Origin: a bacterium | Lineage (GTDB): Bacteria > Patescibacteriota > Patescibacteriia > Patescibacteriales > UBA12465 | Direction of reading: 5' to 3' | DNA length: 64,000 bases | NCBI GenBank assembly: GCA_035400585.1 | Contig: DAOMZR010000001.1 | Coordinates: forward strand, 63,347-127,346 | Part shown: piece by piece, positions 15,084 through 38,944 of the stretch | Layout: each line of letters begins with the position of its first letter | Numbering within the stretch: position 1 is the stretch's first letter | The notes under the pieces: generated by a model | The model's input: only the letters and a program-made list of their open reading frames with translations | What the model was told of the DNA's origin: nothing | Database searches by the model: none | Made by a program: the position numbers and the translations under genes

Positions 15084-15554
15084 ATGTTTTTAAGTATTTA
15101 TAAAAAATTTTTTTATTTAAAAATTAAGCTGAGAACTTTTTATTGGAAAAGGCTTTTTAGCTCTTTTGGTTTGGGTTCTAAAGTCTTTGGTAAAATAATT
15201 GTTTATAATCCGGAAAACGTTAGCATTGGATTTTGCTCTACTTTAAATTACGGCGTTTTTTTAAATGCCAGAGACAAGATAATTATAGGGGATCATGTTC
15301 ACATATCCCCCTATGTAATTATAAATACCGGTTATTTGAACTATAAAATGATTGGACTTGAAAGAGTCCATTTAAAAGGAGTTGTCGTTATAAAAAATGG
15401 AGCTTGGATAGGTTCAAATGTTATAATAAATCCAGGAGTTATTATAGGTGAAAATTTTGTAATAGGTGCTGGGGCTGTGGTTACAAAAGATGTTCCTGAT
15501 AATTCCATCTCTGTTGGTGTTCCGGCGGAAGTTAAGAAAAAAATAAATGATTAA
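15084..15554 (+). CDS. Hexapeptide-repeat (LbH) sugar O-acetyltransferase
   Basis: GAWIGSNVIINPGVIIGENFVIGAGAVVTKDVPDNSISVGVPA. Confidence 0.8.
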   Translation: MFLSIYKKFFYLKIKLRTFYWKRLFSSFGLGSKVFGKIIVYNPENVSIGFCSTLNYGVFLNARDKIIIGDHVHISPYVIINTGYLNYKMIGLERVHLKGVVVIKNGAWIGSNVIINPGVIIGENFVIGAGAVVTKDVPDNSISVGVPAEVKKKIND

Positions 15555-16801
15555 TTTTTATTCATTATTTTTAGAACCAATAAGTTAAAGCAGTAATTTA
15601 TTATTTTAGCTATTACAGCACCCATAATATTAAACTTATATATTAACAATGAGTTTGTTATTATACTAAAAATTGGAGTTATAATATTAAATTTATATAA
15701 CATTTTTGTTTTTTTATCAGCCTGAAGTATAGATGTTAATACAAATATTGGTCCAGCCAGCACTAAAGACAATGAGAATACTTGAGAAAAAAATATTGAT
15801 TCTCTGTATTCCGGAAAGAGGATATTAAAAGCTATAGGAGCCACTAATATATATACCAAAAATAATATGATCAAAATTAAGATCATTTTTATTATTTTTG
15901 GCCATATTTGTTTTTTTGTTTGTTCTAGATTAATTGAGCTAAACTTCGGCAACATTAAAGAATTTGTTACTTTTATCAATCCTTTCATTTGTTCAATTGG
16001 GGCAATTGCTATAGAATATATTGCTAATTCATGAGCGCCAAAGAAATGAAATAATAATAATTTATCTATGTAAAAAGAAAAAGTATTCAAAACCCCCATC
16101 AAACTCAAATGTTTCCCATAAGAAATAGTTTCTGGATCGTTTTCTGTATTAAGCTTATTTTTTAAAAAAGTTATTTTAAAAAAAATTATTCTAAGCAAAG
16201 TATTGATAGTAAAATAAGAGGCTATTATCAAAAAAATATTTTTGGTTAAAAAAATTGCCCCAACCATTACTATCATTGAAACTATTCGAGTAATAATGGT
16301 GTAATTACTTAAAGCTTTGAAATTTTTTTTACCATTTAAGTAAGAGTCGTATATTAAAAGAGAGTCCATAAATGGCACAAAAACAGCCGTTATCAAAAAG
16401 GAAATTGCTAAAGTATTATTTCCTTGAAAATAATAATATCCAGTTAAAATCAGAGATGCTAGCCCTCCCAATAACCCCCATTTAACTTTAGTTTTAAAAG
16501 CTGGCATAACCGATCCTTCATAGCCACGAGCCACAGCCTGTATTATGGCCGTGTTCATTCCAGCTAATGTTGGTATAGCTAGTAGCGAAACTATAGACAT
16601 TATATATTTATAAGTTCCGTAAGTTTCTTTGGGCAGTAAATTGGCAAAGGCTATAGCCAACAAAAAAGACGAGACGCTGGAAACGCCTTGTCCTAAGGTT
16701 AGCCAAAAACCGCCTTTAGCTAAATAAATCATATCGGTTTTGGTCCATTTTTCTGATTTTTTAAGCAGTTTGTAGACTGCTATTTTTATTTTTTCAATCA
16801 T
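15551..16801 (-). CDS. Polysaccharide flippase (Wzx/MOP-superfamily-like)
   Basis: 416 aa polytopic membrane protein with about 12 hydrophobic segments, inside the glycan cluster. The N-terminal pattern resembles polysaccharide biosynthesis protein families. Confidence 0.7.
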   Translation of the reverse strand: MIEKIKIAVYKLLKKSEKWTKTDMIYLAKGGFWLTLGQGVSSVSSFLLAIAFANLLPKETYGTYKYIMSIVSLLAIPTLAGMNTAIIQAVARGYEGSVMPAFKTKVKWGLLGGLASLILTGYYYFQGNNTLAISFLITAVFVPFMDSLLIYDSYLNGKKNFKALSNYTIITRIVSMIVMVGAIFLTKNIFLIIASYFTINTLLRIIFFKITFLKNKLNTENDPETISYGKHLSLMGVLNTFSFYIDKLLLFHFFGAHELAIYSIAIAPIEQMKGLIKVTNSLMLPKFSSINLEQTKKQIWPKIIKMILILIILFLVYILVAPIAFNILFPEYRESIFFSQVFSLSLVLAGPIFVLTSILQADKKTKMLYKFNIITPIFSIITNSLLIYKFNIMGAVIAKIINYCFNLLVLKIMNKN

Positions 16802-16803
16802 TT

Positions 16804-17817
16804 TTATATTTGGTGATATTTCTTATACCAATCAATAAAATTCTCAACCCCTTTTTCAATATTAGTTTGAGGTTTAAAATTCAACATTTTTTCAGCTTTA
16901 GAAATATTAGCAAAAGTTATTTCGACATCTCCTGGTTGGATTGGTTCTAGTTTAATTTTAGCTTTTTTATTTAAAGCTTTTTCTAGTAATTCAATTAAAT
17001 ATTTCACCTCAACTGTCTGTGAATTTCCTAAGTTGAATATTTCATAAGGATAAGCTTTTTCTAAGGATTTAATTATACCATCAACGATATCGTCAATATA
17101 GGTAAAGTCTCGAAGCATCTTGCCGTAGTTAAATAATTTAACCTCACGATTATTAACTATCTCATTGGTAAATAAATACATAGCCATATCAGGACGACTA
17201 CTTGGTCCATAGGCAGTAAAAAATCTTAGTCCAGTACAATTTAAACCAAATAAATGATGATAGTTATGAGCAATTAATTCATTGGCTTTCTTAGTGGCTG
17301 CATATAATGATATGGGATGGTCAACGCTATCTTCCTCACTAAAACCAGTTTCTCTCATTTTATTTTTTCCATAAACCGAAGAACTGGAGGCGTAGATAAA
17401 ATCTTTTATATCAAAATTTCTGGCGCATTCTATGATGTTTATAAATCCTTGTAAATTACTTTGATGATAGGCACCTGGATTCTGCAGTGAATATCTGACT
17501 CCGGCTTGAGCGGCTAGATGGCAAATTTTATCAATTTTATTTTCTTCAAATATTTTTTTTAATTCTTTTTCTTGACTGATATCAGTTTGATAAAATTTAT
17601 AATTATTATATTTTTTTAAAATATTGTTGCGATGATTCTTTAATTTGGGGTCATAATAATCATTAATTGAGTCTAGGCCAACTATCTTTACCCCCATTTC
17701 TAATAGTTTTTGACTAGTATGAAAACCAATAAAACCGGCAGAACCGGTTACTAAAATAGTTTTATTTCTTAAATCATTTTCCATATCTTTTAAATTGTTA
17801 TCGTCCTTCCTGCCCAA
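16804..17817 (-). CDS. NAD-dependent nucleotide-sugar epimerase, UDP-glucuronate 4-epimerase-like
   Basis: ILVTGSAGFIGFH, HLAAQAGVRYSLQNPGAY, ASSSSVYG, LYAATKKANEL, LRFFTAYGPSSRPDMA. Confidence 0.85.
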   Translation of the reverse strand: MGRKDDNNLKDMENDLRNKTILVTGSAGFIGFHTSQKLLEMGVKIVGLDSINDYYDPKLKNHRNNILKKYNNYKFYQTDISQEKELKKIFEENKIDKICHLAAQAGVRYSLQNPGAYHQSNLQGFINIIECARNFDIKDFIYASSSSVYGKNKMRETGFSEEDSVDHPISLYAATKKANELIAHNYHHLFGLNCTGLRFFTAYGPSSRPDMAMYLFTNEIVNNREVKLFNYGKMLRDFTYIDDIVDGIIKSLEKAYPYEIFNLGNSQTVEVKYLIELLEKALNKKAKIKLEPIQPGDVEITFANISKAEKMLNFKPQTNIEKGVENFIDWYKKYHQI

Positions 17818-19174
17818 GAGCAGTTTTAATTGTTTTTAAAATTATACCTAAATCCAAATAAATCGATCTATTCTTAATGTAAAATAAATCATATTGTAAT
17901 TTTTTGTAAGTATCTTCAATGGAGGGGGAGTGATATTCTCCTGAAATTTGATCCCAGCCAGTTATTCCCGGCTTAACTAAGCTTCTGATGTTGTAAAAAG
18001 GGATATTATTGGATAGTTCTTTTATTAATTCTGGTCTTTCTGGTCGAGGACCAACAAAACTCATATCTCCTTTTAAAACATTAAACAGTTGTGGAATTTC
18101 ATCCAAACGACTTTTTCTAAAGAATTTACCAATCTTAGTTATTCGAGGATCATTTTTTTCGGTCGGAGCTTGATTATTATTATTGATTCTCATTGTTCTA
18201 AATTTATAGAAATTAAATTCTTTGTTGTTCTTGCCTAACCTTGTTTGTTTGAAAATAACTGGTCCGGGACTAGTAAGTTTTATTAAGATTACTATTAGAA
18301 CACAAAAGGGAAGTGATAGAATTATGAAAATAGAAGATAAACAAATATCAAAAACCCTTTTTATTCTTTCAAAGTTTTTCTTCTCAGCTAAATTTAGATT
18401 TTCCAAAAACCAAGCTTTATTTAATATCTCTAAAGGAATCTGTCCGCTTATTTCTTCGTAGAAATTTATGAGGTTGTAATAATTTATTCCACTTGGCAAT
18501 AAATTAAATAATGTTTTTTGCAAGTCTTTCATTTCGGTAATATCTTTTTCCAAAATTAGACTGTCTATTTTATAATCTTTAATGGCTCGTGATAATTGGT
18601 TAACATCCTCAATAATGGTTAGTCCATACATTTCGGCTATATCAATTAAAACATTGTTTTTGTTGGTTAATATAAATTTGACATTAAAGCCTAATTGAGG
18701 ATTCTTTTTAATGGCTGTGATTGTTTTTCTAATTATTTCATTATAACCAATAATAGCGATATTAGAATAAGACAAATACTTCCTGTTGATTGACAAGAAA
18801 AATATTCTCCATAACAAAAATAAAACCAAAAAGAAACCCGAAAAGATAATTAAATTAGTTTTAGGAGTAATTTGAGCGTAGGGAACTAAATAAAAAATTA
18901 TCATGGAAACAAAAAAGGAGGCCAAGACACTTTTTATAGTTTTCTCAACCAGCTTGTTTTGGTTGATAATTTTCTTAAAATCATATAAGCTATTGATATA
19001 TAGTATCGTTAACCAGATTAAGAAAATCGGGGCAAATATTTGAAAATGTTGTTTTTCTAAAACAGGGTTTATTTTGTTGGCGTATCTTAGTATCAGGGTT
19101 GTTTTTAGAGAAATAATCAATATCAGCAAATCAACCGATAATAGAACTAGCTGTTTTAATCTTTTATGATTCAT
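17798..19174 (-). CDS. Initiating polyprenyl-phosphate glycosylphosphotransferase (bacterial sugar transferase, WbaP-like)
   Basis: N-terminal TM bundle, then a C-terminal catalytic domain with FKQTRLGKNNKEFNFYKFRTM, DPRITKIGKFFRKSRLDEIPQLFNVLKGDMSFVGPRPERP. Confidence 0.9.
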   Translation of the reverse strand: MNHKRLKQLVLLSVDLLILIISLKTTLILRYANKINPVLEKQHFQIFAPIFLIWLTILYINSLYDFKKIINQNKLVEKTIKSVLASFFVSMIIFYLVPYAQITPKTNLIIFSGFFLVLFLLWRIFFLSINRKYLSYSNIAIIGYNEIIRKTITAIKKNPQLGFNVKFILTNKNNVLIDIAEMYGLTIIEDVNQLSRAIKDYKIDSLILEKDITEMKDLQKTLFNLLPSGINYYNLINFYEEISGQIPLEILNKAWFLENLNLAEKKNFERIKRVFDICLSSIFIILSLPFCVLIVILIKLTSPGPVIFKQTRLGKNNKEFNFYKFRTMRINNNNQAPTEKNDPRITKIGKFFRKSRLDEIPQLFNVLKGDMSFVGPRPERPELIKELSNNIPFYNIRSLVKPGITGWDQISGEYHSPSIEDTYKKLQYDLFYIKNRSIYLDLGIILKTIKTALGQEGR

Positions 19175-19247: not shown

Positions 19248-21551
19248 ATGTCAGAGAAGAATTATGTTTGGCTTTTAAAAATTGGAGTTTTTTCCTCTTT
19301 ATTAACTCTTTTTTTCGCTTTTTCAGGATTACTTTTTCCTTTTGTAACCTCTAAGCAACTAATCTTTAATATTTTATTAGAAGTCCTATTAGTTTTTTGG
19401 CTGGTTTTTGTTTTAAAATATCCAGCTTATAGACCAAAAAAATCTTATATTACTTTTGGCTTGTTAGGATATTTTATAGCCATCTTGCTTTCAATGTTTG
19501 TTAGTGTCGATTTTAATCTTAGTTTTTGGGGCGACCTGGAAAGGCTTCTAGGTTTTTTTCATCTTTTACATTTCTTAGGCTTATATCTGGTAACAATTAC
19601 TGTTTTTAAAACTAAAGAAGATTATTATTGGCTATTTAATGCCATGCTACTTGCTTGTTTAATCGTATCTTTGGTTATGATTGGCTCTTCAGCTCAAAAA
19701 TACTCTCAAAGCCTTTTGGGCAACAGAGCTTATTTTGCTGCTTTCATGTTGTTTGCCATTTTTTTGGATATATTAATGTTTTCTAAATCTAAAAATTGGT
19801 GGATAAAGTCGGCCTATTTAGTTTCTTTGTTTTTATTTCTTTATGGTCTTATTAAATCTGATATTTCCGGTTCTCACGCTGGTCTAGTTGTCGGTCTTTT
19901 TTTCTCCCTTTTGATTTTTGTTGCTTTTTCTAAAAACAAGAAAGTGCGATATGGTGGAATTTCTTCTCTGGTTGTTTTCATAGTTTTAATATCAACTTTG
20001 TTTTATTTTAAATCCAGTCCAGTTTTTGATAATAATTATTTAGGTCGAGCTTTAAGAAGTTTTTCTTGGGAAAATACAACCCTTAAAACCCGCTTGATTT
20101 CTTGGAAGGCAGCCGGTAATTATTTGACTAACCATCCTCTTAATCTTGTTTTCGGCGTCGGTTTAGGTAATTATGCTTTGGTTTTTGATAAATATTTTGA
20201 TGCTAAATTTTACGATTATGATCGTCATGCCACTTATTTTGACAGAGCTCACAATAATTTAGTTGATATTACGGCGACCACCGGTGTTATTGGTTTGATA
20301 AGTTATTTATCATTTATTTTCTTGTTATTTTACTTTTTACTTAAATCTTATTTAACTTACAGAAAAAATAATGATAATCCTAACGCTTTAAATCTTTGGG
20401 AGTTCTCAGCTTTAAGTGGTTTACTGGTGGCTTATTTTGTTCAAAACTTGGCGGTTTTTGATTCTTTTTCAACCTATATGTACTTGATGTTTTTTGCTGC
20501 CTACGTTTCTTTTTTGGAATTATCAAATAGGCCAAAAACAGAGCCAATTAAAAAAGAAGGAGTTAAAATAAAAGATGGGGTTTTGTACTTATTTTTTGGG
20601 GCAATCTTTTTAATCCTTATTTTTAATATTAATGTTCGAGCTATAAAAGTGGCTAAAACCACAATTGATGGCTACATATCTTTGGGTCGTGGGGAAGTAA
20701 TGGAAAGCTATAACAATTTTAAGAAAGCCTTTGAGTCTAATTCTGTTTTAGTAAGAGATAGTCATGAATCTTTTATCACTTTAATGACTACTAATTTTGA
20801 TTCAATGTTTGATAAGGTTTCTACGGATGATTTGGAGAAAATTGTTCTTTTAGGAATTTATGCCGCTGATTCTAATTTAAGTTATAATGTTAATGACAGT
20901 TTGATGCTTTTTAGAGCGGCTAAAATTTATGAAATGGCTGGTCGTTTTTATGCTAAAAAGGGCGACAATGAAAAAGCTTCACAATATAATTCTATTGCTT
21001 TAAAAATGATTGATTTATCAATTGATTCTAGCCCGCAAAGAGTGCCTTTGTACTCTTTTAAATCCAGTATTCTTTTAAATTTCGGCAAAGATCAAGAGGC
21101 GGTTGATACTTTAAATTATGCCAAAAATATAAATCAAAAAATGCCTGATGCTTTCTGTCAGGTGGCTAATTTATATTTTTTAAATAATGATTTTGATAAT
21201 TTTTTAATAGATTTTGAATCTTGTGTTAATAATCGGGGATTAGATTTGATGAATTTTGATTCTTTTATATCAAGTTTTGAGGAGAAATTATTGGAAGAAA
21301 AAAAATTCGATAGTATTGTTAAAATGTATGATATTGTTTTGAAAAAATATCCAGATAGTATTGATTGGTTGTCTCGCGGTGGTTTGGCTTATTATTTAGC
21401 TGGTGATTTTTCTAAAGCAAGAGATTGTGCCCACAGAATATTAGAGCTAGATGGATCTTATAAAGAGGATGTTGAAATTTTTTTAGAACAACTTGATGTT
21501 GAGGAAAAAGAAAAAAATCAAGAATCAAATATATCAGAAAACAATAATTAA
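19248..21551 (+). CDS. Wzy_C / O-antigen-ligase-like polytopic membrane protein with a C-terminal TPR domain
   Basis: About 12 TM helices. The loop motif is RLISWKAAGNYLTNHP...VFGVGLGNY...FDRAHNNLVDITATTGVIG, which includes the conserved Arg and the AHN His of WaaL/PglL/Wzy_C proteins. TPR-like repeats occupy the last 300 aa or so. Confidence 0.75.
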   Translation: MSEKNYVWLLKIGVFSSLLTLFFAFSGLLFPFVTSKQLIFNILLEVLLVFWLVFVLKYPAYRPKKSYITFGLLGYFIAILLSMFVSVDFNLSFWGDLERLLGFFHLLHFLGLYLVTITVFKTKEDYYWLFNAMLLACLIVSLVMIGSSAQKYSQSLLGNRAYFAAFMLFAIFLDILMFSKSKNWWIKSAYLVSLFLFLYGLIKSDISGSHAGLVVGLFFSLLIFVAFSKNKKVRYGGISSLVVFIVLISTLFYFKSSPVFDNNYLGRALRSFSWENTTLKTRLISWKAAGNYLTNHPLNLVFGVGLGNYALVFDKYFDAKFYDYDRHATYFDRAHNNLVDITATTGVIGLISYLSFIFLLFYFLLKSYLTYRKNNDNPNALNLWEFSALSGLLVAYFVQNLAVFDSFSTYMYLMFFAAYVSFLELSNRPKTEPIKKEGVKIKDGVLYLFFGAIFLILIFNINVRAIKVAKTTIDGYISLGRGEVMESYNNFKKAFESNSVLVRDSHESFITLMTTNFDSMFDKVSTDDLEKIVLLGIYAADSNLSYNVNDSLMLFRAAKIYEMAGRFYAKKGDNEKASQYNSIALKMIDLSIDSSPQRVPLYSFKSSILLNFGKDQEAVDTLNYAKNINQKMPDAFCQVANLYFLNNDFDNFLIDFESCVNNRGLDLMNFDSFISSFEEKLLEEKKFDSIVKMYDIVLKKYPDSIDWLSRGGLAYYLAGDFSKARDCAHRILELDGSYKEDVEIFLEQLDVEEKEKNQESNISENNN

Positions 21552-21634: not shown

Positions 21635-23794
21635 ATGATTTCCAACGCAAAAAAAAGAGGGTTCACCCTCATCGAACTTCTGGTAGTAATAGCCATTATT
21701 GGCATATTAGCTACTTTAGCGGTAGTAGCTCTACAACAAGCTAGAAGTAGGGCCAGGGATTCCAAGAGAATGGCTGACATGAAACAGCTTCAAACAGCCA
21801 TGGAATTGTTTTTTAGTGAAAATGGTCGTTATCCAACCACTGAAGAATGGAATAGTGGTGCTATAATTTCTTCTTCTAGTGGAGAAACGTTTATGTATTC
21901 TATTCCAACTGCTCCATCTCCAGCTGATGGAGATTGTACTATGGCTTCAAATTCTTATACTTATATTCCTCAAAACAATGGAGCTAGTTATACTATTGAT
22001 TTTTGTATTGGTAAACAGGTATCTGATTTGAATGCTGGCTACAAACAACTTGTCCCTGGTGGAATAATTGATTTTAGTGGTAGTGACCCAGTTGACAGTG
22101 GTGGTGATTCAACTGCCAATTCTTCAGAAAGGTTTTTGGTTGTGAATTCATCAATTCCTGGTGGTGTTAGAGGTTTGCTTGAATCTTCTGATGGTGGTTA
22201 TGTGTTTGGATCATTTACACCAACAAATGGTTATGATGCTATTTTAGCTAAAACAGATTCTTCTGGTAATGAAATTTGGAGAAAAACTTTTGGAGATTCA
22301 AGTGAACAAGCAGTTAGTTTTGTTATGGAGGCATCAGATGGTGGTTATGTTTTGCTTGGATATACAAGAACTTACGGAACACCTGATTATTATCTTGTTA
22401 AAACAGACAGCTCTGGTAATGAGCTTTGGACAGAGGTCTTTGATGCTGGATTAAGGGAATATCCTAGTTTTATAATAGAAACTTCAGATAATGGTTTTCT
22501 TATTTCTGGATCAACTGATTATGGCACCAAAGGTTCTTATATAGTTAAAACAGATTCTTCTGGCAACGAATCTTGGAATACAATATTAAGCGATGGATAT
22601 GTTTCATCTATAGAGCAAGTTAGTGATGGATATTTGCTTTTTATGACAACCCCATATGTTTATGGTGTTGATCCTAGTTATTTTGTAAAAAAAATAAATT
22701 TTTCTGGAACCGAAGAATGGACAGAGCAAGTTTTTACTTCTTATTCATCAGCCGGAGGATTTAGAGGTTTCTTATTGCCAGATGGAGGATATATTTTTGT
22801 TATAGTAACAGATTCTCTTGAAATTCGTTTATCTAAATTTGATTCTAATTTTTCAGAACAATGGAGCAAATACTACAGTGGTTTAAGTTCTTCTAACTTA
22901 GATATTTCTTCTTTATTAAGTGATAGTGATGGTGGCTATGTTATAACGGGAAGTGTTTCTGGAATGGATTTTGCTGATATTTATTTGATTAAAACTGATA
23001 GTGCTGGTAATGAGTTGTGGAGAAAGAAATATATGGGATTTAATATGGAAAGTACTTATCCCAATTCAAGTATAGTAGCTTCCAATGGTGGGTACTTGCT
23101 TGGTGGCACAGTTTGTGACCCTTCTTATTCTAACTGTTCAACTTTATTAATAAAAACAGAATCCGACGGAACATATAATTGCGTTGATTCAGAATGGGTT
23201 CCAGATGAGAGTACTTATTCTGGGATACAAACACAGACTAGTGATTGTGGCAATACCAGAGATTATGCTGGAACCTGTGTGCCAGATTGTTCTGGAAAGA
23301 ACTGTGGTGAGGATGGATGCGGTGGTTCCTGTGGAACTTGCACTTATCCAGATGTTTGTACGGATGGTGTATGTACTTATGTTTGTTTTTTGTCTGGTAC
23401 AAAAATATCTATGGCTGACGGCAGCTTGAAAAACATTGAAGAAGTTAAGATCGGTGACATGGTTAGAAGTTATGATTTTGTTTCTAAAAAAATTGTTCCA
23501 GCTGAGGTGTCAGATTTAATATATCATGAAGCCGAGAAGGTTGACTCTTATTTAATTATAAATAATTTCTTAAAAGTTACACCTAATCATGAAATACTTA
23601 TAAATGGTTACTGGCAAGAGATAGGTGATGCTCAAATCGGAAGCGTTTTACAATCAGAATCGGGAAAACCAGTATTTATAAATTCTATTGAAAAGATTGA
23701 AGATCATGTACCTACCTATAATATAGAAGTGAAAGATTATCACAATTATTATGCCGATCATATATTAGTTCATAATATTCCCGGCGGTTGTTAA
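21635..23794 (+). CDS. Type IV pilin-like module + 7-blade beta-propeller + Cys-rich region + C-terminal Hint (intein-like) domain
   Basis: Leader MISNAKKRG then [17 protein letters not shown]. Seven repeats have the form DGGYV..G......[13 protein letters not shown]. The Cys-rich stretch is [36 protein letters not shown]. The Hint domain runs from [14 protein letters not shown] to ILVHN. Confidence 0.85.
23384..23776 (+). other. Hint / bacterial intein-like domain (aa 584-714 of the 21635 ORF)
   Basis: Block A is [14 protein letters not shown] (Cys1). Block B is VTPNHEIL (TxxH). Blocks F/G are [21 protein letters not shown]. The residue after HN is Ile, and only IPGGC follows before the stop. 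Confidence 0.8.
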
Positions 23795-23806
23795 AATCTA
23801 TAAAAA

Positions 23807-23838
23807 AGAGGGTTGTTTTTAGGGCAACTCTCTTTTTG
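23807..23838 (+). terminator. Rho-independent terminator after the pilin-Hint gene
   Basis: AGAGGGTTG / CAACTCTCT form a 9-bp stem with one G-T pair, followed by a TTTTTGATTT run. Confidence 0.7.
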
Positions 23839-23925: not shown

Positions 23926-24636
23926 ATGAAAAGAATCTGCTCTTTGTGGAAAAAATATTTTAATTTATTTTTAGAATTTTTTTCCTATGTAGGCGATCAG
24001 GAAAAAAAGATGGGAAAAACTTTTGATTGGCAAATGTCAGAACTCGAAAAGAAGGGAATTCCAGCTGTTATTTTAGAAAAGTTGAAGAAAAAAAAGAGAA
24101 GCGTAGTTTTTTACGCTTGTCATCAGGTTTATTATCCCAATTATTTTGAGATGATTGATTTTTTTCCAGTGATTCCTTTCTCGGTTTTAAAAGAAAAATT
24201 TGATTTTCCGTTATTTAGTATTAATCAAGAAGATGGCTGTTTAATGAATATTTGTGAGTCAATTGATACTGATAAAATTTATAATAATTCTGGACCAGAA
24301 ACGAATGAACCTTATTTCGTTTTTGGTGCTGAAAGTGGTCTTAATGAGAACTCTATTTCTGGCGTTTCACCACGAAGCGCTTTGCGCATTTTTGAAAAGG
24401 TTCAAATTAAACCAATGAATTTAACGGAAGCACTTTCTTTTTTGATGCTGTACGGAAATCTTTACAACGGTAATGGAGAAAAAATTTCAGTTCTTGATTC
24501 TCGTTATCGAAAAGATTCTTTTGTGCCTGAATTTTCCAGAAGTCGAAAAGGGTTTAAACTTTTAGATGATTTATTAGATAGTAACGACAGAAAAAAAGTT
24601 TATCCCGCAATACTTCAAAGACATTTTTATTCTTGA
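23926..24636 (+). CDS. Hypothetical cytoplasmic protein, no recognisable family
   Basis: 236-aa ORF with the only clear Shine-Dalgarno in the window (AAAAGGAGAAAACATG). It has its own promoter-like element and a downstream terminator. Confidence 0.6.
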   Translation: MKRICSLWKKYFNLFLEFFSYVGDQEKKMGKTFDWQMSELEKKGIPAVILEKLKKKKRSVVFYACHQVYYPNYFEMIDFFPVIPFSVLKEKFDFPLFSINQEDGCLMNICESIDTDKIYNNSGPETNEPYFVFGAESGLNENSISGVSPRSALRIFEKVQIKPMNLTEALSFLMLYGNLYNGNGEKISVLDSRYRKDSFVPEFSRSRKGFKLLDDLLDSNDRKKVYPAILQRHFYS

Positions 24637-24653: not shown

Positions 24654-24683
24654 AAAAAAGCGATCTGTTAGATCGCTTTTTTT
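24654..24683. terminator. Bidirectional hairpin terminator between convergent genes
   Basis: AAAAAAGCGATC / GATCGCTTTTTT form a 12-bp stem with loop TGTTA. A-runs and T-runs flank it on both sides. Confidence 0.75.
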
Positions 24684-25822
24684 ATTTCTTCCAATATTTT
24701 TTCGGCATATTTCTCTTCGCCTATTTGCGGAAGCTCGGCCCCGATATATTTGGAGAAGTTAGAGCAAAAATAATCTATTTTATTAATTAAATCGTGAGAG
24801 TTTTTAGCTTCAAATAATATGCCTTTATATTTTTTAATTAATTCGCTTATTCCTCCTAAATCTGAGGCGATTACTGGCAAATTGAAAGCCGAAGCCTCAT
24901 AAATAACAGTGGGGGAGTTTTCATAACAAAGAGAAGGAACTATCAGACAATCATGTTTCAAGAGTTCATTTTTAACTTCTTCTCCATTTTTCTTTCCTAA
25001 AAATATTATATTTTTGTTGTTGTTAGCTAATTCTTGTGCCTCATTCATTAAACTTCCGTCTCCGACAATGGTTAGTTTGATGTTTTCTTTATTTTTAATA
25101 CGATTAAAAGTTTTAATTAAAAAAATAACTCCTTTATGTTCTTCTATTTGACCGACAAAAATAAAGTTATAATTTTGTTTATCTTCGGTAGCTTCTTTTT
25201 TTATTTCAACTTTTTTAAAAGCCAAGGGGTTATCTAATATTAATTTTTTACTTTTTCTAAAAAAGCCTCTTCTTAAATGTTTTTCTAATAACCATTTTGA
25301 GGGAGATACGATCAAATCAGGGGAAGAACTTATTTTTTTATTAAGCATTTGATAAATTCTAGCTGCTAAAGTATCAGCAATTTTTTCTTTGCGATAAAAA
25401 ATTAATCCTGATGGATGAATCAACTGAACGTCGTGCAATATATGAACATGTTTTATCTTCAACTGTCTGATTACAAAAAAACTTAAAAAAGATAAGCCCA
25501 TTAAATTATTGCTGATAATTAAATCTGGTTTTTCTTTTTTCAAAATTCTTCTTAATCTTAAAGCCTTTCTAGTGTTAAAAACATTTTCTATTTGCCAGAA
25601 AAAACGGTAAGTATAACTATAATCTTTTAGATTGTAATATTTAGAGTTTATATAGTATGTTTTTGGTGAAGAATTTTCTTCTTTTTTACTGCTTGGTTTG
25701 GTGGTAACCAAAAAAACCTGGTGGCCCAAAGATTGTAGTTGATTGATTGTTATTTCAGCTACTTTTTCGGCACCACCTTTTTGGTAGGGTTTGTATAAAT
25801 TATTGATTACAGCTACTTTCAT
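24668..25822 (-). CDS. Glycosyltransferase, GT4 family
   Basis: MKVAVINNLYKPYQKGGAEK ... PSLCYENSPTVIYEASAFNLPVIASDLGGISELI. Confidence 0.85.
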   Translation of the reverse strand: MKVAVINNLYKPYQKGGAEKVAEITINQLQSLGHQVFLVTTKPSSKKEENSSPKTYYINSKYYNLKDYSYTYRFFWQIENVFNTRKALRLRRILKKEKPDLIISNNLMGLSFLSFFVIRQLKIKHVHILHDVQLIHPSGLIFYRKEKIADTLAARIYQMLNKKISSSPDLIVSPSKWLLEKHLRRGFFRKSKKLILDNPLAFKKVEIKKEATEDKQNYNFIFVGQIEEHKGVIFLIKTFNRIKNKENIKLTIVGDGSLMNEAQELANNNKNIIFLGKKNGEEVKNELLKHDCLIVPSLCYENSPTVIYEASAFNLPVIASDLGGISELIKKYKGILFEAKNSHDLINKIDYFCSNFSKYIGAELPQIGEEKYAEKILEEIKKAI

Positions 25823-25937
25823 AAGCCTATTTTAACAGAAGCAAGGAATAGCAACAATATTGACATTTATTGATAAATATGATATTATTTTCGGTTGATC
25901 TTTGAAAATAATATTTAATTTAAAAAAAATAAAAATC

Positions 25938-26141
25938 ATGAAAAAACGGATAACTTGTGACAAAAAACAGAGAATTTGTGATATTTTAGATCTAATAAAT
26001 TTTTTTCTTTTACTTTTTTTACTTTTTATTGGAATATTTGCTCTTAGGGGTATGTTTGAAAATATTCGAGCAAACAATCAAAATTTGAGATTTCAGGTTG
26101 AGAATTTAAAATCTCAAAATGAAAGAATTACAAATAATTAA
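25938..26141 (+). CDS. Small bitopic membrane protein with a coiled-coil tail (FtsB/DivIC-like shape, tentative)
   Basis: MKKRIT..., one TM segment (LINFFLLLFLLFIGIFAL), then NNQNLRFQVENLKSQNERI. A strong terminator follows. The start was chosen at the internal Met of track ORF 25902..26141. Confidence 0.35.
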   Translation: MKKRITCDKKQRICDILDLINFFLLLFLLFIGIFALRGMFENIRANNQNLRFQVENLKSQNERITNN

Positions 26142-26180
26142 AAATTTCAATACGGCGAAAAAAAATAATTGATTGAAAAT

Positions 26181-26210
26181 GCTAGCACTAGTTTGCTAGC
26201 TTTTTATTTT
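26181..26210. terminator. Bidirectional hairpin terminator
   Basis: GCTAGCA / TGCTAGC form a perfect 7-bp stem with loop CTAGTT, followed by TTTTTATTTT. Confidence 0.7.
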
Positions 26211-27307
26211 AACAATTCTTTTGTTTTTGAAACAAATACTCCCTTAGAATATTTTTTTTCAGCTAAGATTCTTGCTTCTTGCCCCATCTTATTTCTTGTT
26301 TCGGTGCTTTCTATTATGTAAGTTAATTTGTTTTTTAAATCATTAATGTTTTTTGGTTCTATCTTTAACCCAGATATATTGTTTTCAAAGACATTTCTTA
26401 CTCCTGGTAGGTTAGAAGCAATTACTGGCGTAGCGCAAGCCATAGATTCTATTAATACTATGCCAAAAGCTTCATTGCTGTTAATAGATGGTAACACTAA
26501 AACATCAGCTTTTTGATAGTAATTAATAAGCTCTTCTGTGTCTGGTTTGCCAATAAAATTAATTTCATTTTCTATGTTTAAAGTTTTAACTAGATTTTGA
26601 TAATCTTTTTTTAATTCACCCTCTCCGGCAATTAGCAATTTGGTGTTTTTTAGATTGGCCTGGAAAAAGGCTTGAATTAAAATATCAACCCCTTTAAAAT
26701 AATGAGCCTTGTCTAATCCACCGATAAATAAAATTTCCTTGCTTTCTTTGTTGTTTTTTTTGTTTAAATCGGGGTAAAATTTGTTGGTATCTATAAAAAA
26801 GGGAATCTCTGTAAACTTTCCTGGCCAAAGCGAATAATATTTTTTTATCTGACTATGTTTAACATAATCAAGCGAAGCGCAAACTATTTTGTCAGCCATT
26901 TTGAACAATGATTTTCTGATTAATATTTCTGGCCAAGACGAAACTTTAAAAAATATGTTTTTGTGTCTAACATCCATGTGATAATGGATAATCAGTTTTT
27001 TTTGAGGATTTAATAATTTAAATAGCCAAATTATAAGTGATGTCCCAAAAAATGGGTAGTGAAAATAAATCAAATCAAATTTTTTTAATTCCTTTAATAA
27101 TTGCCACAATATGCCAGCATGTCCAAAGTTCAAAAAAGCTTTTAATCTGATTATTTTTTTTTCCTGTTGCTGGTCTATTTCTTTATTTTTTTTAGTAAAA
27201 ACAAAAGACTCATGTTCTTTTTCAAACACTTCTTGATTTTTATAAGCTGATGTTCCAATTCCACCAGCGTAGGGAGGATAAACGCAGACTACTTGAGCAA
27301 TTTTCAT
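26204..27307 (-). CDS. Glycosyltransferase, GT4 family
   Basis: MKIAQVVCVYPPYAGGIGT ... PSINSNEAFGIVLIESMACATPVIASNLPGVRNVF. Confidence 0.85.
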   Translation of the reverse strand: MKIAQVVCVYPPYAGGIGTSAYKNQEVFEKEHESFVFTKKNKEIDQQQEKKIIRLKAFLNFGHAGILWQLLKELKKFDLIYFHYPFFGTSLIIWLFKLLNPQKKLIIHYHMDVRHKNIFFKVSSWPEILIRKSLFKMADKIVCASLDYVKHSQIKKYYSLWPGKFTEIPFFIDTNKFYPDLNKKNNKESKEILFIGGLDKAHYFKGVDILIQAFFQANLKNTKLLIAGEGELKKDYQNLVKTLNIENEINFIGKPDTEELINYYQKADVLVLPSINSNEAFGIVLIESMACATPVIASNLPGVRNVFENNISGLKIEPKNINDLKNKLTYIIESTETRNKMGQEARILAEKKYSKGVFVSKTKELLK

Positions 27308-29483: not shown

Positions 29484-29849
29484 ATGAACAAAATCAACGA
29501 ATATTTAAATTCTAGAGGTGATAATGTTATTTTAGTATATATTAATAACTTAGCAAAAACTGGTCGACTAGATCATGCTAAAAAAATATTAAAAACAATA
29601 GAAAGATTGGAAAATAATGAACTAGGATTGTTATTAAAAATTAAATTAGTTAAGAAATTAAAAGGGTTTAATAATATATTCGAACTTATTATTAATTGGA
29701 AAGACGCTAATTATAGAATATTTTTTTCTATTATAGATAACATTTTTTGTTTAACTAATATTTTTAATAAGAAAAGACAAAAAACTTCAATAAAGGAAAT
29801 AAAACTAGCAGAAGTAAGAAAAAAAGAAATTATAAATAATTTAAAATAA
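29484..29849 (+). CDS. Type II toxin, HigB / Gp49-like (RelE/ParE superfamily)
   Basis: The C-terminal pattern NYRIFFSIIDNIFCLTNIFNKKRQKTSIKEIKLAEVRKKE is typical of Gp49-like toxins. The gene lies directly upstream of an XRE HTH gene. Confidence 0.7.
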   Translation: MNKINEYLNSRGDNVILVYINNLAKTGRLDHAKKILKTIERLENNELGLLLKIKLVKKLKGFNNIFELIINWKDANYRIFFSIIDNIFCLTNIFNKKRQKTSIKEIKLAEVRKKEIINNLK

Positions 29850-36735: not shown

Positions 36736-38919
36736 ATGACTACAATTATTAAAAAATCAAATAAAAAAAAATTTCAGGCTTTTACTCTTATTGAACTTTT
36801 AGTTGTTATAGCCGTTGTTGCCATAATTGCTACTTTGGCTGTTATAGCCTTACAACAAGCCAGATCTCGTGCTCGTGATTCAAAACGCATAGCTGATGTT
36901 AAACAGGTTCAAACAGCTTTAGAATTATTTTTTAACGAGCAGGGAAGATACCCTACTGTGGATGAATGGAATAGCGGATCTTTAATTACTTCTACTAGTC
37001 AGATATTAATGCAAGACATCCCAGTTGCCCCATATCCAGCCGATGGCTCTTGTGATTCTAATCAAAATAATTTCTATTATGAGCCAAGCGAAGATTATTC
37101 TACTTACAGTCTTTCCTTTTGTTTGGGAAATGATGTTTCTGATTTATCTGAAGGGTTAAAATGTTTAACTCCCGGGGGAATATTAGATTATGATTGTTCG
37201 AGTGGTAGCTCTGGTGGGGAAGGTGAAATAAGTGGTAATATTTGTTATCCCGATTGTCAATCTGGCTATATTTGTCAAACCGGTTCCTGTGTAGTTGATG
37301 CCTTTGAATGTGGTCAGTCCGTCTCCTACAACGGCTATACCTATCCAACAGTAGCTATTGGTAGTCAATGTTGGTTCAAAGAAAACCTCAAAACCGATAA
37401 ATTCAAAAATGGTGATTCTATTCCTAGAATTACTGGAAGTTGGGGCGGAACAACAATTTCTCCTTGGATATCTTATCATAACAACTCAGCTTATTATCCA
37501 GTTTATGATTTTTATCCAGGCGTTGATTCTTACGGTTATGTTTATTCCTCTCATGCCGTAATTGATCCACGTGGTTTATGCCCAGAAGGTTGGAGGGTTG
37601 CTACTCAAAGTGATTTTACTACTCTACTATCTAGTATTGGAACATACAATGCTTACAACCTGCGATCTTGTCGCCAAGTTAGTTCTCCTTTGGGTGGTTC
37701 TTGTGCTACTACCGAACATCCTCGTTGGGGTTCTGATACGGTATATGGAACCGATGACTTAGGTTTTTCTCTTTTACCAGGTGGACATAAGTATTCGACT
37801 CAATGGCCCTATTTTGGAACTGGTTACTATATTTGGACCTCAACTCCTAATTCTTTAGGCACTAGTTTTTATGAAATATCAAATACTGGTGGCAGTACTA
37901 TTGGTACAGCTGGAACAACCATAATTGATTCTATTTATGGTCGCTATATTAGATGTGTTAAAAAAACTGATCTTTCGCCAAAAACTATTCCAACAGTTAC
38001 AACTTCTAGCGTTACTAATATTAGTTCTACCAAAATATCTTCTGGCGGAAATGTAACTGCTGATGGAGGCACTCCTGTTTTTACCAAAGGACTTGTTTGG
38101 AGTCAGGGAAACAATCCTTTAATTGGTGATGGTGCTTCTAAATTTTTAAATACCACTTCTACCGGTAGTTCTTTTAGTTTGGATGTTTTCTATGGACTTG
38201 AACCGGGCAAAACTTATTATATTAGAGCTTATGCTGTTAATGAGGTTGGTATAGCTTATGGTAATGTTGTTTCTTTCACTACCACTAACCCATGTTCTGG
38301 ACTATCTTCCGTCTCCTACAACGGCTATACCTATCCAACAGTAGCTATTGGTAGTCAATGTTGGTTCAAAGAAAACCTCAAAACCGATAAATTCAAAAAT
38401 GGTGATTCTATTCCTAGAATTACTGGAAGTTGGAGTGGAATTACTACGCCAGTCTATGATTTTTATCCAGGTGTTGATTCTTACGGCTATGTTTATTCAG
38501 CTAACACAGTGATTGATTCTCGTGGTTTATGCCCAGAAGGTTGGAGGGTTGCTACTCAAAGTGATTTTACTACTCTACTATCTAGTATTGGAACATACAA
38601 TGCTTACAACCTGCGATCTTGTCGCCAAGTTAGTTCTCCTTTGGGTGGTTCTTGTACTACTACCGAACATCCTCGTTGGAATTCTAATTCTAATTATGGA
38701 ACTGATGACTTAGGTTTTTCTCTTTTGCCGGGCGGTAATAAATATTCAACTACTTGGAATTATTTTTTGACTGGCTATTATGTTTGGACTTCAACACTTG
38801 ATGGACCTGGAACGAGTCTTTATTATTTTGTAAATACTGGCGGCAACTCTCTTGGTAGTCAAATGACAAATCTAACGTCGGTTTATGGTATGTATACTAG
38901 ATGTATTAAAAGTGATTAA
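36736..38919 (+). CDS. Type IV pilin-like module + FISUMP lectin-like domain + Ig-like spacer + second FISUMP domain
   Basis: Leader [15 protein letters not shown] then [17 protein letters not shown]. The 4-Cys linker is [17 protein letters not shown]. The block [33 protein letters not shown] ... [18 protein letters not shown] ... GFSLLPGG ... YYIWTST ... IRCVK occurs twice, which is the Fibrobacter succinogenes major paralogous domain pattern. Confidence 0.85.
36778..37058 (+). repeat. 281-bp 5' cassette, 280/281 identical to 38975..39255 in the next gene
   Basis: Direct alignment of the two stretches shows a single mismatch (37020 C versus 39217 T). Identity ends abruptly after TGTGATTC. 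Confidence 0.9.
37318..37443 (+). repeat. 126-bp block identical to 38308..38433 within the same gene
   Basis: Both copies run from TCCGTCTCCTACAACGGCTATACC to ATTACTGGAAGTTGG. The flanks are diverged. Confidence 0.9.
37570..37728 (+). repeat. 159-bp block, 158/159 identical to 38521..38679 within the same gene
   Basis: Both copies run from CGTGGTTTATGCCCAGAAGG to CATCCTCGTTGG. The single difference is 37705 G versus 38656 A. Confidence 0.9.
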
Positions 38920-38944
38920 ATATATCATCTTATTAAAATTTAAT

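What the first reader, a model, noticed from the sequence alone, without database searches (positions are those of the whole stretch)
23384..23794. Hedgehog-style C-terminal Hint (intein-like) domain on a pilin-anchored propeller protein
The last 136 aa of ORF 21635 carry all the intein/Hint blocks: [14 protein letters not shown] (Cys1), VTPNHEIL (TxxH) and [21 protein letters not shown]. Three features argue against an inserted intein. The domain is terminal, the residue after HN is Ile, and only IPGGC follows, so there is no C-extein and splicing is impossible. Established Hint chemistry predicts an N-S acyl shift at Cys584. That would give a thioester that releases the pilin-propeller portion or transfers its new C-terminus to a nucleophile, as in Hedgehog cholesterolysis or bacterial BIL domains. 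On a pilus-displayed adhesin this could mean self-release of the head, or covalent capture of a target or envelope component. I do not know of a described pilin with this arrangement.
Basis: partly seen in the sequence, partly recalled or inferred. Interest (0 to 1): 0.8.

Follow-up and report, generated by a model that had tools for sequence, protein, structure and literature searches.

The report
Self-cleaving Hint domain capping a pilin adhesin
A surface protein of an ultrasmall (Patescibacteria) bacterium, built as pilin anchor, beta-propeller head and cysteine-rich stalk, ends in a real intein-like self-cleaving domain with no cargo behind it; this layout is not described in the papers searched, but similar ones are common among uncultured microbes.

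Summary
Residues 584-714 of the 719-aa ORF 21635-23794 form a genuine Hint domain. Pfam PT-HINT scores above its cutoff, the modelled fold matches bacterial intein-like (BIL) domains, and all catalytic blocks are present. The domain is truly terminal: a TAA stop and a terminator follow, and four homologs end the same way.

By sequence and fold this is an A-type BIL / PT-HINT domain. It is Hedgehog-like only in its position.

Three points need correction:
- Cleavage at Cys584 would shed the Hint, not the pilin-anchored head.
- "Splicing impossible" is too strong, because BILs can ligate without a +1 nucleophile.
- The 5-6-residue tail always ends in Gly-Cys. That Cys and Cys584 are the only cysteines in the module.

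The arrangement is not unique. In 18-23% of close Hint relatives the last Hint lies 1-8 residues from the end, and at least four separate families carry prepilin leaders.

The head is swapped between closely related genomes, while the linker-Hint-GC cap is kept and conserved.

Most likely the Hint self-cleaves after export and leaves the adhesin. Covalent transfer of the adhesin's new C-terminus, as the closest solved relative does, stays open. I rate it a new variant of a known kind, of moderate interest.

The parts
21635..23794 (+). Whole gene: 719-aa pilin-fused adhesin with a C-terminal Hint domain (stop TAA at 23792-23794)
   Evidence: ORF list and sequence. A 99%-identical protein, P0001, was seen on 8 contigs. 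Full-length homologs are P0002 (49%), P0003 (41%) and P0006.
21635..21808 (+). Prepilin (class III) leader MISNAKKRG|FTLIELL..., with predicted cleavage after Gly9, followed by the hydrophobic N-terminal helix (aa 1-58)
   Evidence: PF07963 E 2e-9 and TIGR02532 36.4 bits against a cutoff of 16.3. AF2 helix at residues 12-58. F10-G23 are invariant in 9 homologs.
21809..22156 (+). Pilin globular part with the invariant Cys101/Cys124 pair, plus a Gly/Ser spacer (aa 59-174)
   Evidence: Invariant columns C101 and C124. Weak T2SSG, PilA and GspG matches. The same ~140-aa N-terminal module occurs in four other genes of the window. The model is low-confidence here.
22157..23164 (+). Beta-propeller head made of SDGGY...KTDSSGNE.W repeats of SBBP/delta-60 type (aa ~175-510)
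   Evidence: NF047494 SBBP propeller E 7e-15. AF2 all-beta with pLDDT 70-91. Foldseek top hits are the CylK propeller (E 1.6e-15) and seven-bladed lectins. Thousands of homologs exist.
23180..23383 (+). Cysteine-rich linker (aa 516-583, 10 Cys) with the core motif CxPxCxGKxCGxDGCGGxCGxC...C..GVC, ending at Val583 (the -1 residue)
   Evidence: Alignment A1. Cys positions and the even Cys count upstream of the Hint in all four full-length proteins. It is conserved together with the Hint where the head differs.
23384..23776 (+). Hint domain (aa 584-714) of A-type BIL / PT-HINT type. Motif residues: Cys584 (block A), Thr649 and His652 (block B, TPNH), Asn696 and His703 (block F), His713-Asn714 (block G).
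   Evidence: The motif residues are invariant in the six-member alignment A2 and nearly invariant in 54 relatives.
23777..23791 (+). Five-residue tail IPGGC. The +1 residue is Ile, and the terminal Cys719 is the only other Cys in the module.
   Evidence: Tails are IPGGC, GLGGGC, IIGGC, ALPPGC and ALGGGC in the five distinct members. Cys census. The tail is not placed by AF2, with pLDDT below 50.
23803..23837 (+). Intrinsic-terminator-like hairpin followed by a T-run, directly after the stop
   Evidence: 16 pairs, loop of 3, T-rich tail.
19248..21551 (+). Context: upstream Wzy_C (O-antigen-ligase family) plus TPR membrane protein. Its position next to the pilin-Hint gene is kept in the homologous loci.
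   Evidence: PF04932 E 1e-12. Synteny in L001 and L003. Identity 41% and 75%. A functional link was not tested.

Best explanation
The gene encodes an exported, pilin-type surface adhesin of a Patescibacteria bacterium.

Order of parts:
- prepilin leader and N-terminal helix, which anchor it in the membrane or in a type IV pilus-like fibre
- small pilin domain
- beta-propeller binding head
- disulfide-rich stalk
- catalytically competent A-type BIL / PT-HINT domain as the last module

Proposed mechanism:
1. After export and folding, the Hint performs an N-to-S acyl shift at the Val583-Cys584 bond. This is inferred from intact block A, B, F and G residues and from the family's established chemistry.
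2. The thioester is then resolved and the 15-kDa Hint is shed. The adhesin stays on its pilin anchor with a new C-terminus at the end of the stalk.
3. I take hydrolysis as the default resolution. No nucleophile-recruiting region follows the Hint, and BILs lacking a +1 nucleophile mainly give cleavage products.
4. The conserved His-Asn plus a short tail suggests that Asn714 cyclisation also still occurs and releases IPGGC.
5. The invariant terminal Cys719, the only other Cys in the module, may gate or relay the reaction. It could form a disulfide with Cys584 until reduction, or act as a thiol acceptor. This step is speculative.

Shown: domain identity, fold, motif conservation, terminal position, modular conservation.
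Inferred: export topology, catalytic activity, the fate of the acyl group, and any role of Cys719.
For: - Domain identity and fold.
- Catalytic residues are invariant in the subgroup. In 279 related domains, 269 start with Cys and 244 end in HN.
- Purifying selection: the Hint is the best-conserved part of P0002 (69%, against 52% for the pilin part, 41% for the head and 41% for the neighbouring Wzy_C gene). About 45% of conserved residues use different codons.
- Modularity: P0003 and P0006 keep the pilin part (79-85%) and the linker plus Hint (52-66%) around an unrelated head (11%). P0003 sits at the same chromosomal position as the window gene, in a closely related genome where Wzy_C is 75% identical.
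- Genuine end of the gene.
- BILs without a +1 nucleophile give mainly N- and C-cleavage (PMC7664689; PMC7765530).
- Terminal Hints with 1-8-residue tails recur on proteins with signal peptides or prepilin leaders.
- Cys parity: 14, 12, 12 and 12 Cys upstream, and exactly Cys1 plus the last residue in the module.
- A catalytic-Cys disulfide toggle exists in a natural intein (PMC6195587).
Against: - There is no biochemical evidence. Activity, topology and timing are all inferred.
- A domain that only removes itself by hydrolysis has no obvious benefit, which favours a transfer or chaperone-type role.
- The closest solved relative conjugates rather than merely cleaves.
- Only one of the five pilin-fusion paralogs in the window has the Hint, so it is not needed for this protein class in general.
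- The tail could not be modelled (pLDDT below 50), so Cys584-Cys719 proximity is untested.
- The GC tail rests on only five distinct sequences from one clade. Other pilin-Hint proteins lack it, for example P0190 with tail KVG.
- No pilus machinery lies in the window.
Confidence: 0.45

Rival explanations
1. Covalent conjugation. The Hint-generated thioester at Val583 is not hydrolysed but attacked by an external nucleophile. Candidates are a lysine or other amine, a hydroxyl, or a thiol on the host-cell surface, on the bacterium's own envelope or glycan, or on another subunit. The distal end of the adhesin would then become covalently attached while the Hint leaves. This would be a prokaryotic, extracellular analogue of Hedgehog cholesteroylation or of BUBL ubiquitin-like conjugation. 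Cys719 could carry the acyl group as a small peptide thioester after Asn714 cyclisation.
For: - The best sequence and structure match is Tetrahymena BIL2. It is reported to form a Lys-epsilon-amine isopeptide with the N-extein C-terminus and to conjugate it to various substrates without ATP (PMC8616854).
- The module is kept while the binding head is exchanged, as expected for a generic attachment device.
- Terminal Hints are found in several episymbiotic or predatory lineages: Saccharibacteria, Nanoarchaeota, Oligoflexia, Polyangiales.
- The conserved terminal thiol is the only nucleophile in the tail.
- A self-removing domain needs a payoff, and transfer supplies one.
Against: - No region follows the Hint that could recruit a nucleophile, whereas Hedgehog has a sterol-recognition region. 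Here there are 5 residues.
- Bacterial A-type BILs tested so far give mainly cleavage.
- No acceptor is identifiable from sequence.
- The lineage pattern is anecdotal, since terminal Hints also occur in many free-living groups.
- The GC tail is clade-specific.
Confidence: 0.27
2. Mini-splicing. The Hint acts as BIL domains can, ligating without a +1 nucleophile. Asn714 cyclisation frees the alpha-amine of Ile715, or Cys719 first takes the acyl group. The pentapeptide is then joined to Val583, so the mature adhesin ends in ...TYV-IPGGC with a free C-terminal cysteine, and the Hint is excised.
For: - His-Asn is retained, and at least one residue always follows it: 0 of 61 terminal Hints in the family end at the Asn.
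- The tail has a conserved length (5-6) and a conserved Gly-Cys end.
- BIL ligation without nucleophilic side chains is documented (Aranko 2013, cited in PMC7664689).
Against: - Adding five residues by way of a 131-aa domain has no evident advantage over encoding them directly.
- A-type BILs splice inefficiently unless mutated.
- One review states that A-type BILs cleave but cannot ligate.
- Other terminal relatives have tails as short as a single Lys.
Confidence: 0.1
3. Non-catalytic relic or structural cap. The domain descends from a polymorphic-toxin PT-HINT or an internal BIL whose downstream cargo was lost. It now persists as an inert or merely structural or binding end-domain.
For: - PF07591 is the family of pre-toxin Hints, and many relatives carry 100-1000 aa after the Hint.
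- Here nothing follows it, and no toxin or immunity family is detectable in the downstream gene.
Against: - All catalytic residues are invariant over sequences that differ at 31-40% of Hint positions, with heavy synonymous turnover.
- The Hint is more conserved than the rest of the protein and than a neighbouring gene in the distant pair.
- The same end is kept in two different head cassettes.
- Terminal Hints form a recurrent class rather than sporadic truncations.
Confidence: 0.13
4. Artefact. The terminal position results from an assembly break, a frameshift or a recoded stop that hides a downstream extein or toxin.
For: None found.
Against: - The gene lies in the middle of a 64-kb window. 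The stop is TAA, and further in-frame stops follow.
- A terminator hairpin follows directly.
- The next gene has its own start 130 bp downstream and is a conserved separate protein.
- Four independent homologs from other assemblies end 5-6 residues after HN.
Confidence: 0.02

Closest known systems
A-type bacterial intein-like (BIL) domains (Amitai et al. 2003), e.g. Clostridium thermocellum BIL, PDB 2lwy
   Same: - Hint fold (Foldseek E 6e-10, TM 0.80).
- N-terminal Cys, TxxH, and C-terminal His-Asn.
- Non-nucleophilic +1 residue.
- Located in a variable region of a non-conserved exported protein.
   Different: - Described BILs sit between two protein parts. Here the domain is the last module, with only a 5-residue Gly-Cys-ended tail.
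- The host is a prepilin-leader protein.
- Activity is untested.
BIL2 of the Tetrahymena thermophila BUBL1 locus (PDB 6y75 / 6tmm)
   Same: - Best sequence hit (E 4e-10) and best structural hit (E 1e-11, TM 0.79).
- Same catalytic residues.
   Different: - BIL2 is eukaryotic and intracellular, flanked by ubiquitin-like domains. It transfers the upstream one onto lysines.
- Here the upstream part is an extracellular adhesin stalk, and there is no downstream domain.
- Identity is 27-29% in the Foldseek structural alignments.
Pre-toxin HINT (PF07591) of polymorphic toxin systems (Zhang et al. 2012)
   Same: - The HMM match is above the curated cutoff.
- The protein is exported, with a repeat or propeller region upstream.
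- The locus is polymorphic, with cassette exchange.
   Different: - The family is defined by its position just before a C-terminal toxin, usually with an immunity gene. Here there is no toxin and no recognisable immunity gene.
- What varies is the head upstream of the Hint, not the C-terminal tip.
Hedgehog / Hog C-terminal autoprocessing domains
   Same: - C-terminal position on a secreted protein.
- Predicted use of only the N-terminal acyl shift to process the upstream part.
   Different: - Only a distant relative: PF01079 is below its cutoff, and 1at0 ranks 44th at 14% identity.
- No sterol-recognition region.
- It keeps the His-Asn that Hog domains lack (the last point is from my own knowledge).
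Large type IV pilin-like adhesins of Patescibacteria/CPR
   Same: - Canonical G|FTLIE leader, N-terminal helix and Cys pair.
- One of five such pilin-plus-head fusions in this window.
- Type IV pili are known to mediate episymbiosis in Saccharibacteria (PMC11623550, title and abstract).
   Different: None of the literature searches run found a described pilin carrying a Hint domain. Assembly of this protein into a fibre is unproven.

Membership tests
HINT superfamily | Hint (Hedgehog/intein) beta-fold | tested here: met
   AF2 model with pLDDT 81.5. 64 PDB hits at E<=1e-3, and the listed top 50 are all BILs, inteins, Vint or Hog.
HINT superfamily | Block A nucleophile (Cys/Ser) at position 1 and block B TxxH | tested here: met
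   Cys584; Thr649-Pro-Asn-His652. Invariant in A2 and nearly invariant in 54 relatives.
HINT superfamily | Self-catalysed N-S acyl shift and cleavage | not testable with these tools
   Needs protein biochemistry.
A-type BIL domain | C-terminal His-Asn with a non-nucleophilic residue at +1 | tested here: met
   His713-Asn714, then Ile715. Homologs have Gly, Ile or Ala at +1.
A-type BIL domain | Sits in a variable region of a non-conserved, usually secreted, bacterial protein and not in a conserved housekeeping site | tested here: met
   The host is a polymorphic pilin-fusion adhesin. The head is exchanged between close genomes.
A-type BIL domain | Closer to known BILs than to inteins or Hog domains | tested here: met
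   BIL structures take ranks 1-5 by sequence and by fold.
A-type BIL domain | Flanked by polypeptide on both sides | tested here: inconclusive
   Only 5 residues follow. Whether this counts as a C-flank is a matter of definition. The tail is conserved.
PT-HINT of polymorphic toxins (PF07591) | HMM score above the Pfam gathering cutoff | tested here: met
   34.6 and 39.2 bits against 27.7.
PT-HINT of polymorphic toxins (PF07591) | Located immediately before a C-terminal toxin domain | tested here: not met
   IPGGC, then the stop and a terminator. Definition from PMC3482391.
PT-HINT of polymorphic toxins (PF07591) | Cognate immunity gene downstream | tested here: not met
   The downstream 236-aa ORF has no Pfam, NCBIfam or PADLOC family. 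It is present in the P0003 locus (49% identical) but absent after P0002.
True intein | Cys/Ser/Thr at +1 and ligation of two functional exteins | tested here: not met
   The +1 residue is Ile, and the C-flank is 5 residues.
True intein | Inserted in a conserved site of a conserved host protein, with intein-less alleles that are continuous across the site | tested here: not met
   Hint-less relatives (P0015, P0019, P0027, P0097) simply end after the propeller.
Hedgehog Hog domain | PF01079 membership and a sterol/adduct-recognition region after the Hint | tested here: not met
   PF01079 scores 24.9-26.2 bits against a cutoff of 29.7. No region follows the Hint. 1at0 ranks 44th.
Type IV pilin / pseudopilin-like protein | Class III signal peptide with G|F(T)LxE and a hydrophobic N-terminal helix | tested here: met
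   PF07963 E 2e-9. TIGR02532 above its cutoff. Model helix at residues 12-58.
Type IV pilin / pseudopilin-like protein | Processed by a prepilin peptidase and assembled into a fibre by pilus machinery | not testable with these tools
   No PilB, PilC or PilD genes among the ORFs of this window that were scanned. The rest of the genome was not available.

The most novel reading that the evidence does not exclude
The terminal Hint is a one-shot covalent-attachment device on a pilus adhesin of an episymbiotic bacterium. After the propeller head binds, the Cys584 thioester would transfer the adhesin's C-terminus onto an amine, hydroxyl or thiol of the host-cell surface, or of the bacterium's own envelope glycan. 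The thioester might be kept latent by a Cys584-Cys719 disulfide, or handed to Cys719 as a peptide thioester. This would be an extracellular prokaryotic counterpart of Hedgehog lipidation and BUBL conjugation, and a functional analogue of the thioester adhesins of Gram-positive pili. The many other short-tailed terminal Hints on exported proteins of uncultured bacteria and archaea would then form an unrecognised class of self-ligating surface proteins.
Probability: 0.2. Interest if true: 0.85.

Novelty: new variant of a known kind. Interest (0 to 1): 0.55.

Why it matters
How ultrasmall episymbiotic bacteria attach to their hosts is largely unknown. Their type IV pili and large pilin-fused proteins are prime candidates for this.

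A self-processing Hint at the far end of such an adhesin implies a post-export maturation step. That step may create a chemically activated C-terminus on the cell surface.

The survey here also shows that terminal, cargo-less Hint domains are common: about one fifth of close relatives, across many bacterial and archaeal phyla. None of the papers read or searched here assigns them a function, so one well-chosen biochemical test would inform a large class of proteins. Small Hints that work outside the cell are also of practical interest for protein ligation.

If the domain merely hydrolyses itself off, the finding is a modest addition to BIL biology.

Tried and rejected
- **Assembly truncation or recoding:** rejected, given the TAA stop, the terminator, and four homologs with the same end.
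- **True intein:** rejected. There is no +1 nucleophile, no extein and no conserved host site.
- **Classical polymorphic toxin:** rejected as membership. No toxin follows, and the downstream ORF has no family hit and is not consistently linked.
- **Hedgehog-type domain:** rejected as membership.
- **Single-sequence homolog search with the Hint:** returned only 2 proteins because of the word index.
- **Profile search with the Hint alignment:** returned mostly short fragments and gave no architecture information.
- **Deeper alignment for structure prediction using genome loci:** The Hint model therefore rests on 7 sequences, and the tail stayed unmodelled.
- **Metagenome scan for more GC-tail members:** found only the two already known.
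- **Codons of the Gly-Cys-stop end:** identical in all four genes (GGT TGT TAA). These are probably the preferred codons in such AT-rich genomes (my assumption; codon usage was not measured), so this says nothing about selection.
- **Anti-phage defence library:** nothing relevant.
- **Pilus machinery in the window:** none found among the ORFs scanned.
Full report
**1. Observation**

The segment is a genuine Hint domain:
- Pfam PT-HINT (PF07591) scores 34.6 bits in the full protein and 39.2 bits (E 1e-9) alone, above the 27.7-bit cutoff. Weaker sub-threshold matches go to Hom_end_hint, Vint, Hint and Intein_splicing.
- NCBIfam intein_Cterm is above its cutoff.
- The best solved-structure sequence matches are the BIL2 domain of the Tetrahymena BUBL1 locus (E 4e-10) and the Clostridium thermocellum BIL (E 5e-7).
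- An AlphaFold2 model of aa 548-719 (pLDDT 81.5, pTM 0.73) is all-beta. Its top Foldseek hits are the same BILs (E 1e-11, TM 0.79-0.80), then mini-inteins. Hedgehog Hog domains appear only at ranks 43-44.

The catalytic positions are Cys584, Thr649/His652 (TPNH), Asn696/His703 (block F) and His713-Asn714.

**2. The rest of the protein**

- The N-terminus is a canonical prepilin leader (MISNAKKRG|FTLIELL; PF07963 E 2e-9, TIGR02532 above cutoff).
- The full-length model has a helix at residues 12-58.
- Cys101 and Cys124 are invariant in nine homologs.
- Residues ~175-510 are SDGGY...KTDSSGNE.W repeats. They model as all-beta with pLDDT 70-91 and match beta-propellers: CylK at E 1.6e-15, and seven-bladed bacterial lectins.
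- A 68-residue linker with ten cysteines (core CxPxCxGKxCGxDGCGGxCGxC) leads to Val583.

'Pilin-anchored propeller protein' is therefore correct as a description of domains. Assembly into a pilus is not shown, and no pilus motor genes were found among the ORFs scanned in the window.

**3. The terminal position is real**

- The stop is TAA, with further in-frame stops after it.
- A strong terminator-like hairpin lies at 23803-23837.
- The next gene starts at 23926 and is a separate protein, conserved (49% identity) next to the P0003 homolog.
- Homologs P0001 (99%), P0002 (49%), P0003 (41%) and P0006 come from other assemblies. All end 5-6 residues after HN.

**4.

(a) *A conserved tail.* The tails are IPGGC, GLGGGC, IIGGC, ALPPGC and, in fragment P0165, ALGGGC. 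They are variable in the middle and always end in Gly-Cys.

(b) *Cysteine parity.* In all four full-length proteins the number of cysteines upstream of the Hint is even (14, 12, 12, 12). The Hint plus tail holds exactly two: the catalytic Cys1 and the very last residue.

(c) *A module that outlasts the head.*
- P0003 and P0006 share the pilin part (79-85%) and the linker plus Hint (52-66%) with the window protein, but their head is unrelated (11%).
- P0003 occupies the same chromosomal position: flippase, epimerase, Bac_transf, then Wzy_C-TPR, then the pilin-Hint gene. Its genome is closely related, with Wzy_C 75% identical.
- The head has therefore been replaced at one locus while the linker-Hint-GC cap was kept.

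(d) *Selection on the Hint.*
- In the distant pair (P0002; neighbouring Wzy_C 41% identical) the Hint is the best-conserved region. It is 69% identical, against 52% for the pilin part and 41% for the head.
- About 45% of the conserved Hint residues use different codons. The conservation is therefore at the protein level.

(e) *Paralogs.* The window carries five pilin-fusion genes with nearly identical first ~140 residues and different heads (LVIVD propeller, Fib_succ_major, Lcl_C, SBBP propeller). Only this one has a Hint.

**5. How unusual is it?**

A full HMMER scan of 1.84 billion representatives found 10,115 relatives of this Hint (E<=1e-3), 122 of them at E<=1e-30. Many proteins hold 2-12 copies. 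I analysed three samples: 152 proteins (the 150 best representatives plus P0002 and P0006), 79 loci from species-representative genomes, and 80 metagenome loci.

- The last Hint lies 1-8 residues from the protein end in 25 of 136, 18 of 77 and 18 of 80 proteins (18-23%).
- None of these 61 ends exactly at the Asn.
- In the representative sample, 269 of the 281 scored domain starts are Cys and 244 of 279 complete domain ends are HN.
- The +1 residue is mostly Lys, Ala, Gly, Ser or Asp. In the representative sample Lys is 43% and Cys/Ser/Thr about 10%.

The carriers are Patescibacteria, DPANN archaea, many Thermoplasmatota, Planctomycetes, Elusimicrobia, Omnitrophota, Oligoflexia, Bacteroidetes and others. 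Several of them have signal peptides.

Real prepilin leaders joined to a Hint occur in at least four further groups:
- P0190: Patescibacteria-type pilin with a terminal Hint and tail KVG.
- P0130.
- The 298-aa L023/L102/L115 family, with a Pro-rich tail of 16-20 residues.
- L096, with two Hints.

A cargo-less terminal Hint on an exported protein is thus a recurrent and widespread design, and pilin hosts are one recurring case. The GC-ended tail is confined to one small Patescibacteria clade of five distinct sequences. The metagenome scan added none.

**6. Literature**

- BIL domains lack the +1 nucleophile and give mainly cleavage products. A single mutation turns them into efficient splicers, and ligation without nucleophilic side chains has been shown for the C. 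thermocellum BIL (PMC7664689).
- A-type BILs carry His-Asn and lie in hypervariable regions of non-conserved bacterial proteins (PMC7765530).
- Tetrahymena BIL2 forms a Lys-epsilon-amine isopeptide with the upstream domain's C-terminus and conjugates it to several substrates without ATP (PMC8616854).
- PT-HINT is defined by its position just before a toxin domain. That survey never mentions pilins (PMC3482391).
- A natural intein's catalytic cysteine can be reversibly blocked by an intramolecular disulfide (PMC6195587).
- Searches combining Hint or intein-like with pilin, Patescibacteria or CPR found no description of this architecture. The library covers only open-access papers and bioRxiv.

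**7. Mechanism**

*Topology (inferred from established pilin biology).* The class III leader directs Sec-dependent insertion. Everything after the N-terminal helix lies outside the membrane, so the Hint folds extracellularly.

*Chemistry (inferred from conserved residues and family behaviour).* An N-S acyl shift at Val583-Cys584 produces a thioester, and resolving it sheds the Hint.

*Three outcomes are possible.*
- Hydrolysis. I take this as most likely (0.45), because nothing after the Hint could recruit a nucleophile and bacterial BILs mainly cleave.
- Transfer to an external nucleophile (0.27). This is favoured by the BIL2 precedent, and because a self-removing domain otherwise has no obvious payoff.
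- Ligation of the IPGGC tail (0.10). This is suggested by the retained His-Asn, the rule that at least one residue always follows it, and the conserved tail.

An inert relic (0.13) is disfavoured by the conservation pattern. An artefact (0.02) is excluded.

The invariant terminal Cys may act as a redox latch or an acyl relay. That idea rests only on Cys parity and conservation in five sequences. The tail could not be modelled (pLDDT below 50).

**8. Verdict**

- The domain is a member of the HINT superfamily and fits the A-type BIL definition. It passes the PF07591 HMM cutoff but fails the architectural definition of a pre-toxin Hint. It is neither a true intein nor a Hog domain.
- Novelty: a new variant of a known kind. 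A BIL-type Hint serves as the terminal cap of a polymorphic pilin-fused adhesin, with a conserved Gly-Cys tail.
- Interest is moderate (0.55). The chemistry is expected for the family and the layout is common in metagenomes. However, none of the papers read or searched here assigns terminal prokaryotic Hints a function, the host protein is a likely host-attachment factor of an episymbiont, and a simple cleavage and mass-spectrometry experiment would decide between shedding, splicing and covalent transfer.

Noticed in passing
window 19248-21551 (with 15551-19174 and 24668-27307): A Wzy_C (O-antigen-ligase family) plus TPR membrane protein sits directly upstream of the pilin-Hint gene. The adjacency is kept in L001 (41% identical) and L003 (75%). 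It lies inside a glycan cluster of flippase, epimerase, Bac_transf initiating transferase and GT4 transferases. Pilin O-oligosaccharyltransferases (PglL, PilO/TfpO) are Wzy_C proteins (my own knowledge), so this may be a pilin glycosylation locus.
   Followed up: partly
window 2376-3479, 36736-38919, 38885-40834, 60218-61843: Four more pilin-fusion genes share a nearly identical ~140-aa N-terminal pilin module with the Hint gene. Their heads differ: LVIVD propeller, two Fib_succ_major domains, Lcl_C, and Fib_succ_major plus Lcl_C. None has a Hint. This looks like a modular adhesin repertoire, possibly homogenised by gene conversion.
   Followed up: partly
window 21635-23794 versus L003 6001-8031: Two closely related genomes (neighbouring Wzy_C gene 75% identical) carry unrelated heads (11% identity) at the same locus, between a conserved pilin N-terminus and a conserved linker-Hint-GC end. 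Hint identity stays at 65-69% whatever the genome distance, which suggests cassette exchange.
   Followed up: partly
Hint relatives: 152 proteins (150 best representatives plus P0002, P0006), L006-L164: Among 61 proteins whose last Hint is within 8 residues of the end, none ends exactly at the Asn of His-Asn. At least one residue always follows, often a single Lys. Lys is the +1 residue in 43% of 279 domains in the representative sample. This hints that Asn cyclisation, or a +1 Lys nucleophile, matters even without cargo.
   Followed up: partly
L015, L031, L034, L062 (Thermoplasmatota archaea); P0129: Some proteins carry 4-12 Hint domains, several of them back to back with only 2-4 residues between one His-Asn and the next catalytic Cys (for example HN-TGV-CFL and HN-SVIT-CFP). 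What such arrays process is unexplained.
   Followed up: no
L071 (Bacteroidetes MAG): Four ORFs of about 380-440 aa, all in the same reading frame of one locus and apparently consecutive, each end in a Hint followed by a single Lys.
   Followed up: no
window 23926-24636: A 236-aa ORF downstream of the Hint gene has no Pfam, NCBIfam or PADLOC family. It is 49% identical to the ORF downstream of P0003 but is absent after P0002. No signal sequence is evident by eye, and its function is unknown.
   Followed up: partly
window 23180-23383 and homologs: The cysteine-rich motif CxPxCxGKxCGxDGCGGxCGxC...C..GVC precedes the Hint in both head types. Shorter Cys knots follow the pilin domain in the paralogs at 36736 and 38885. 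No family model matched it.
   Followed up: no
window 29484-29849: A small Gp49/HigB-like toxin-family ORF (PF05973, E 1e-11) lies a few kb downstream. It is probably part of a toxin-antitoxin pair unrelated to the finding.
   Followed up: no
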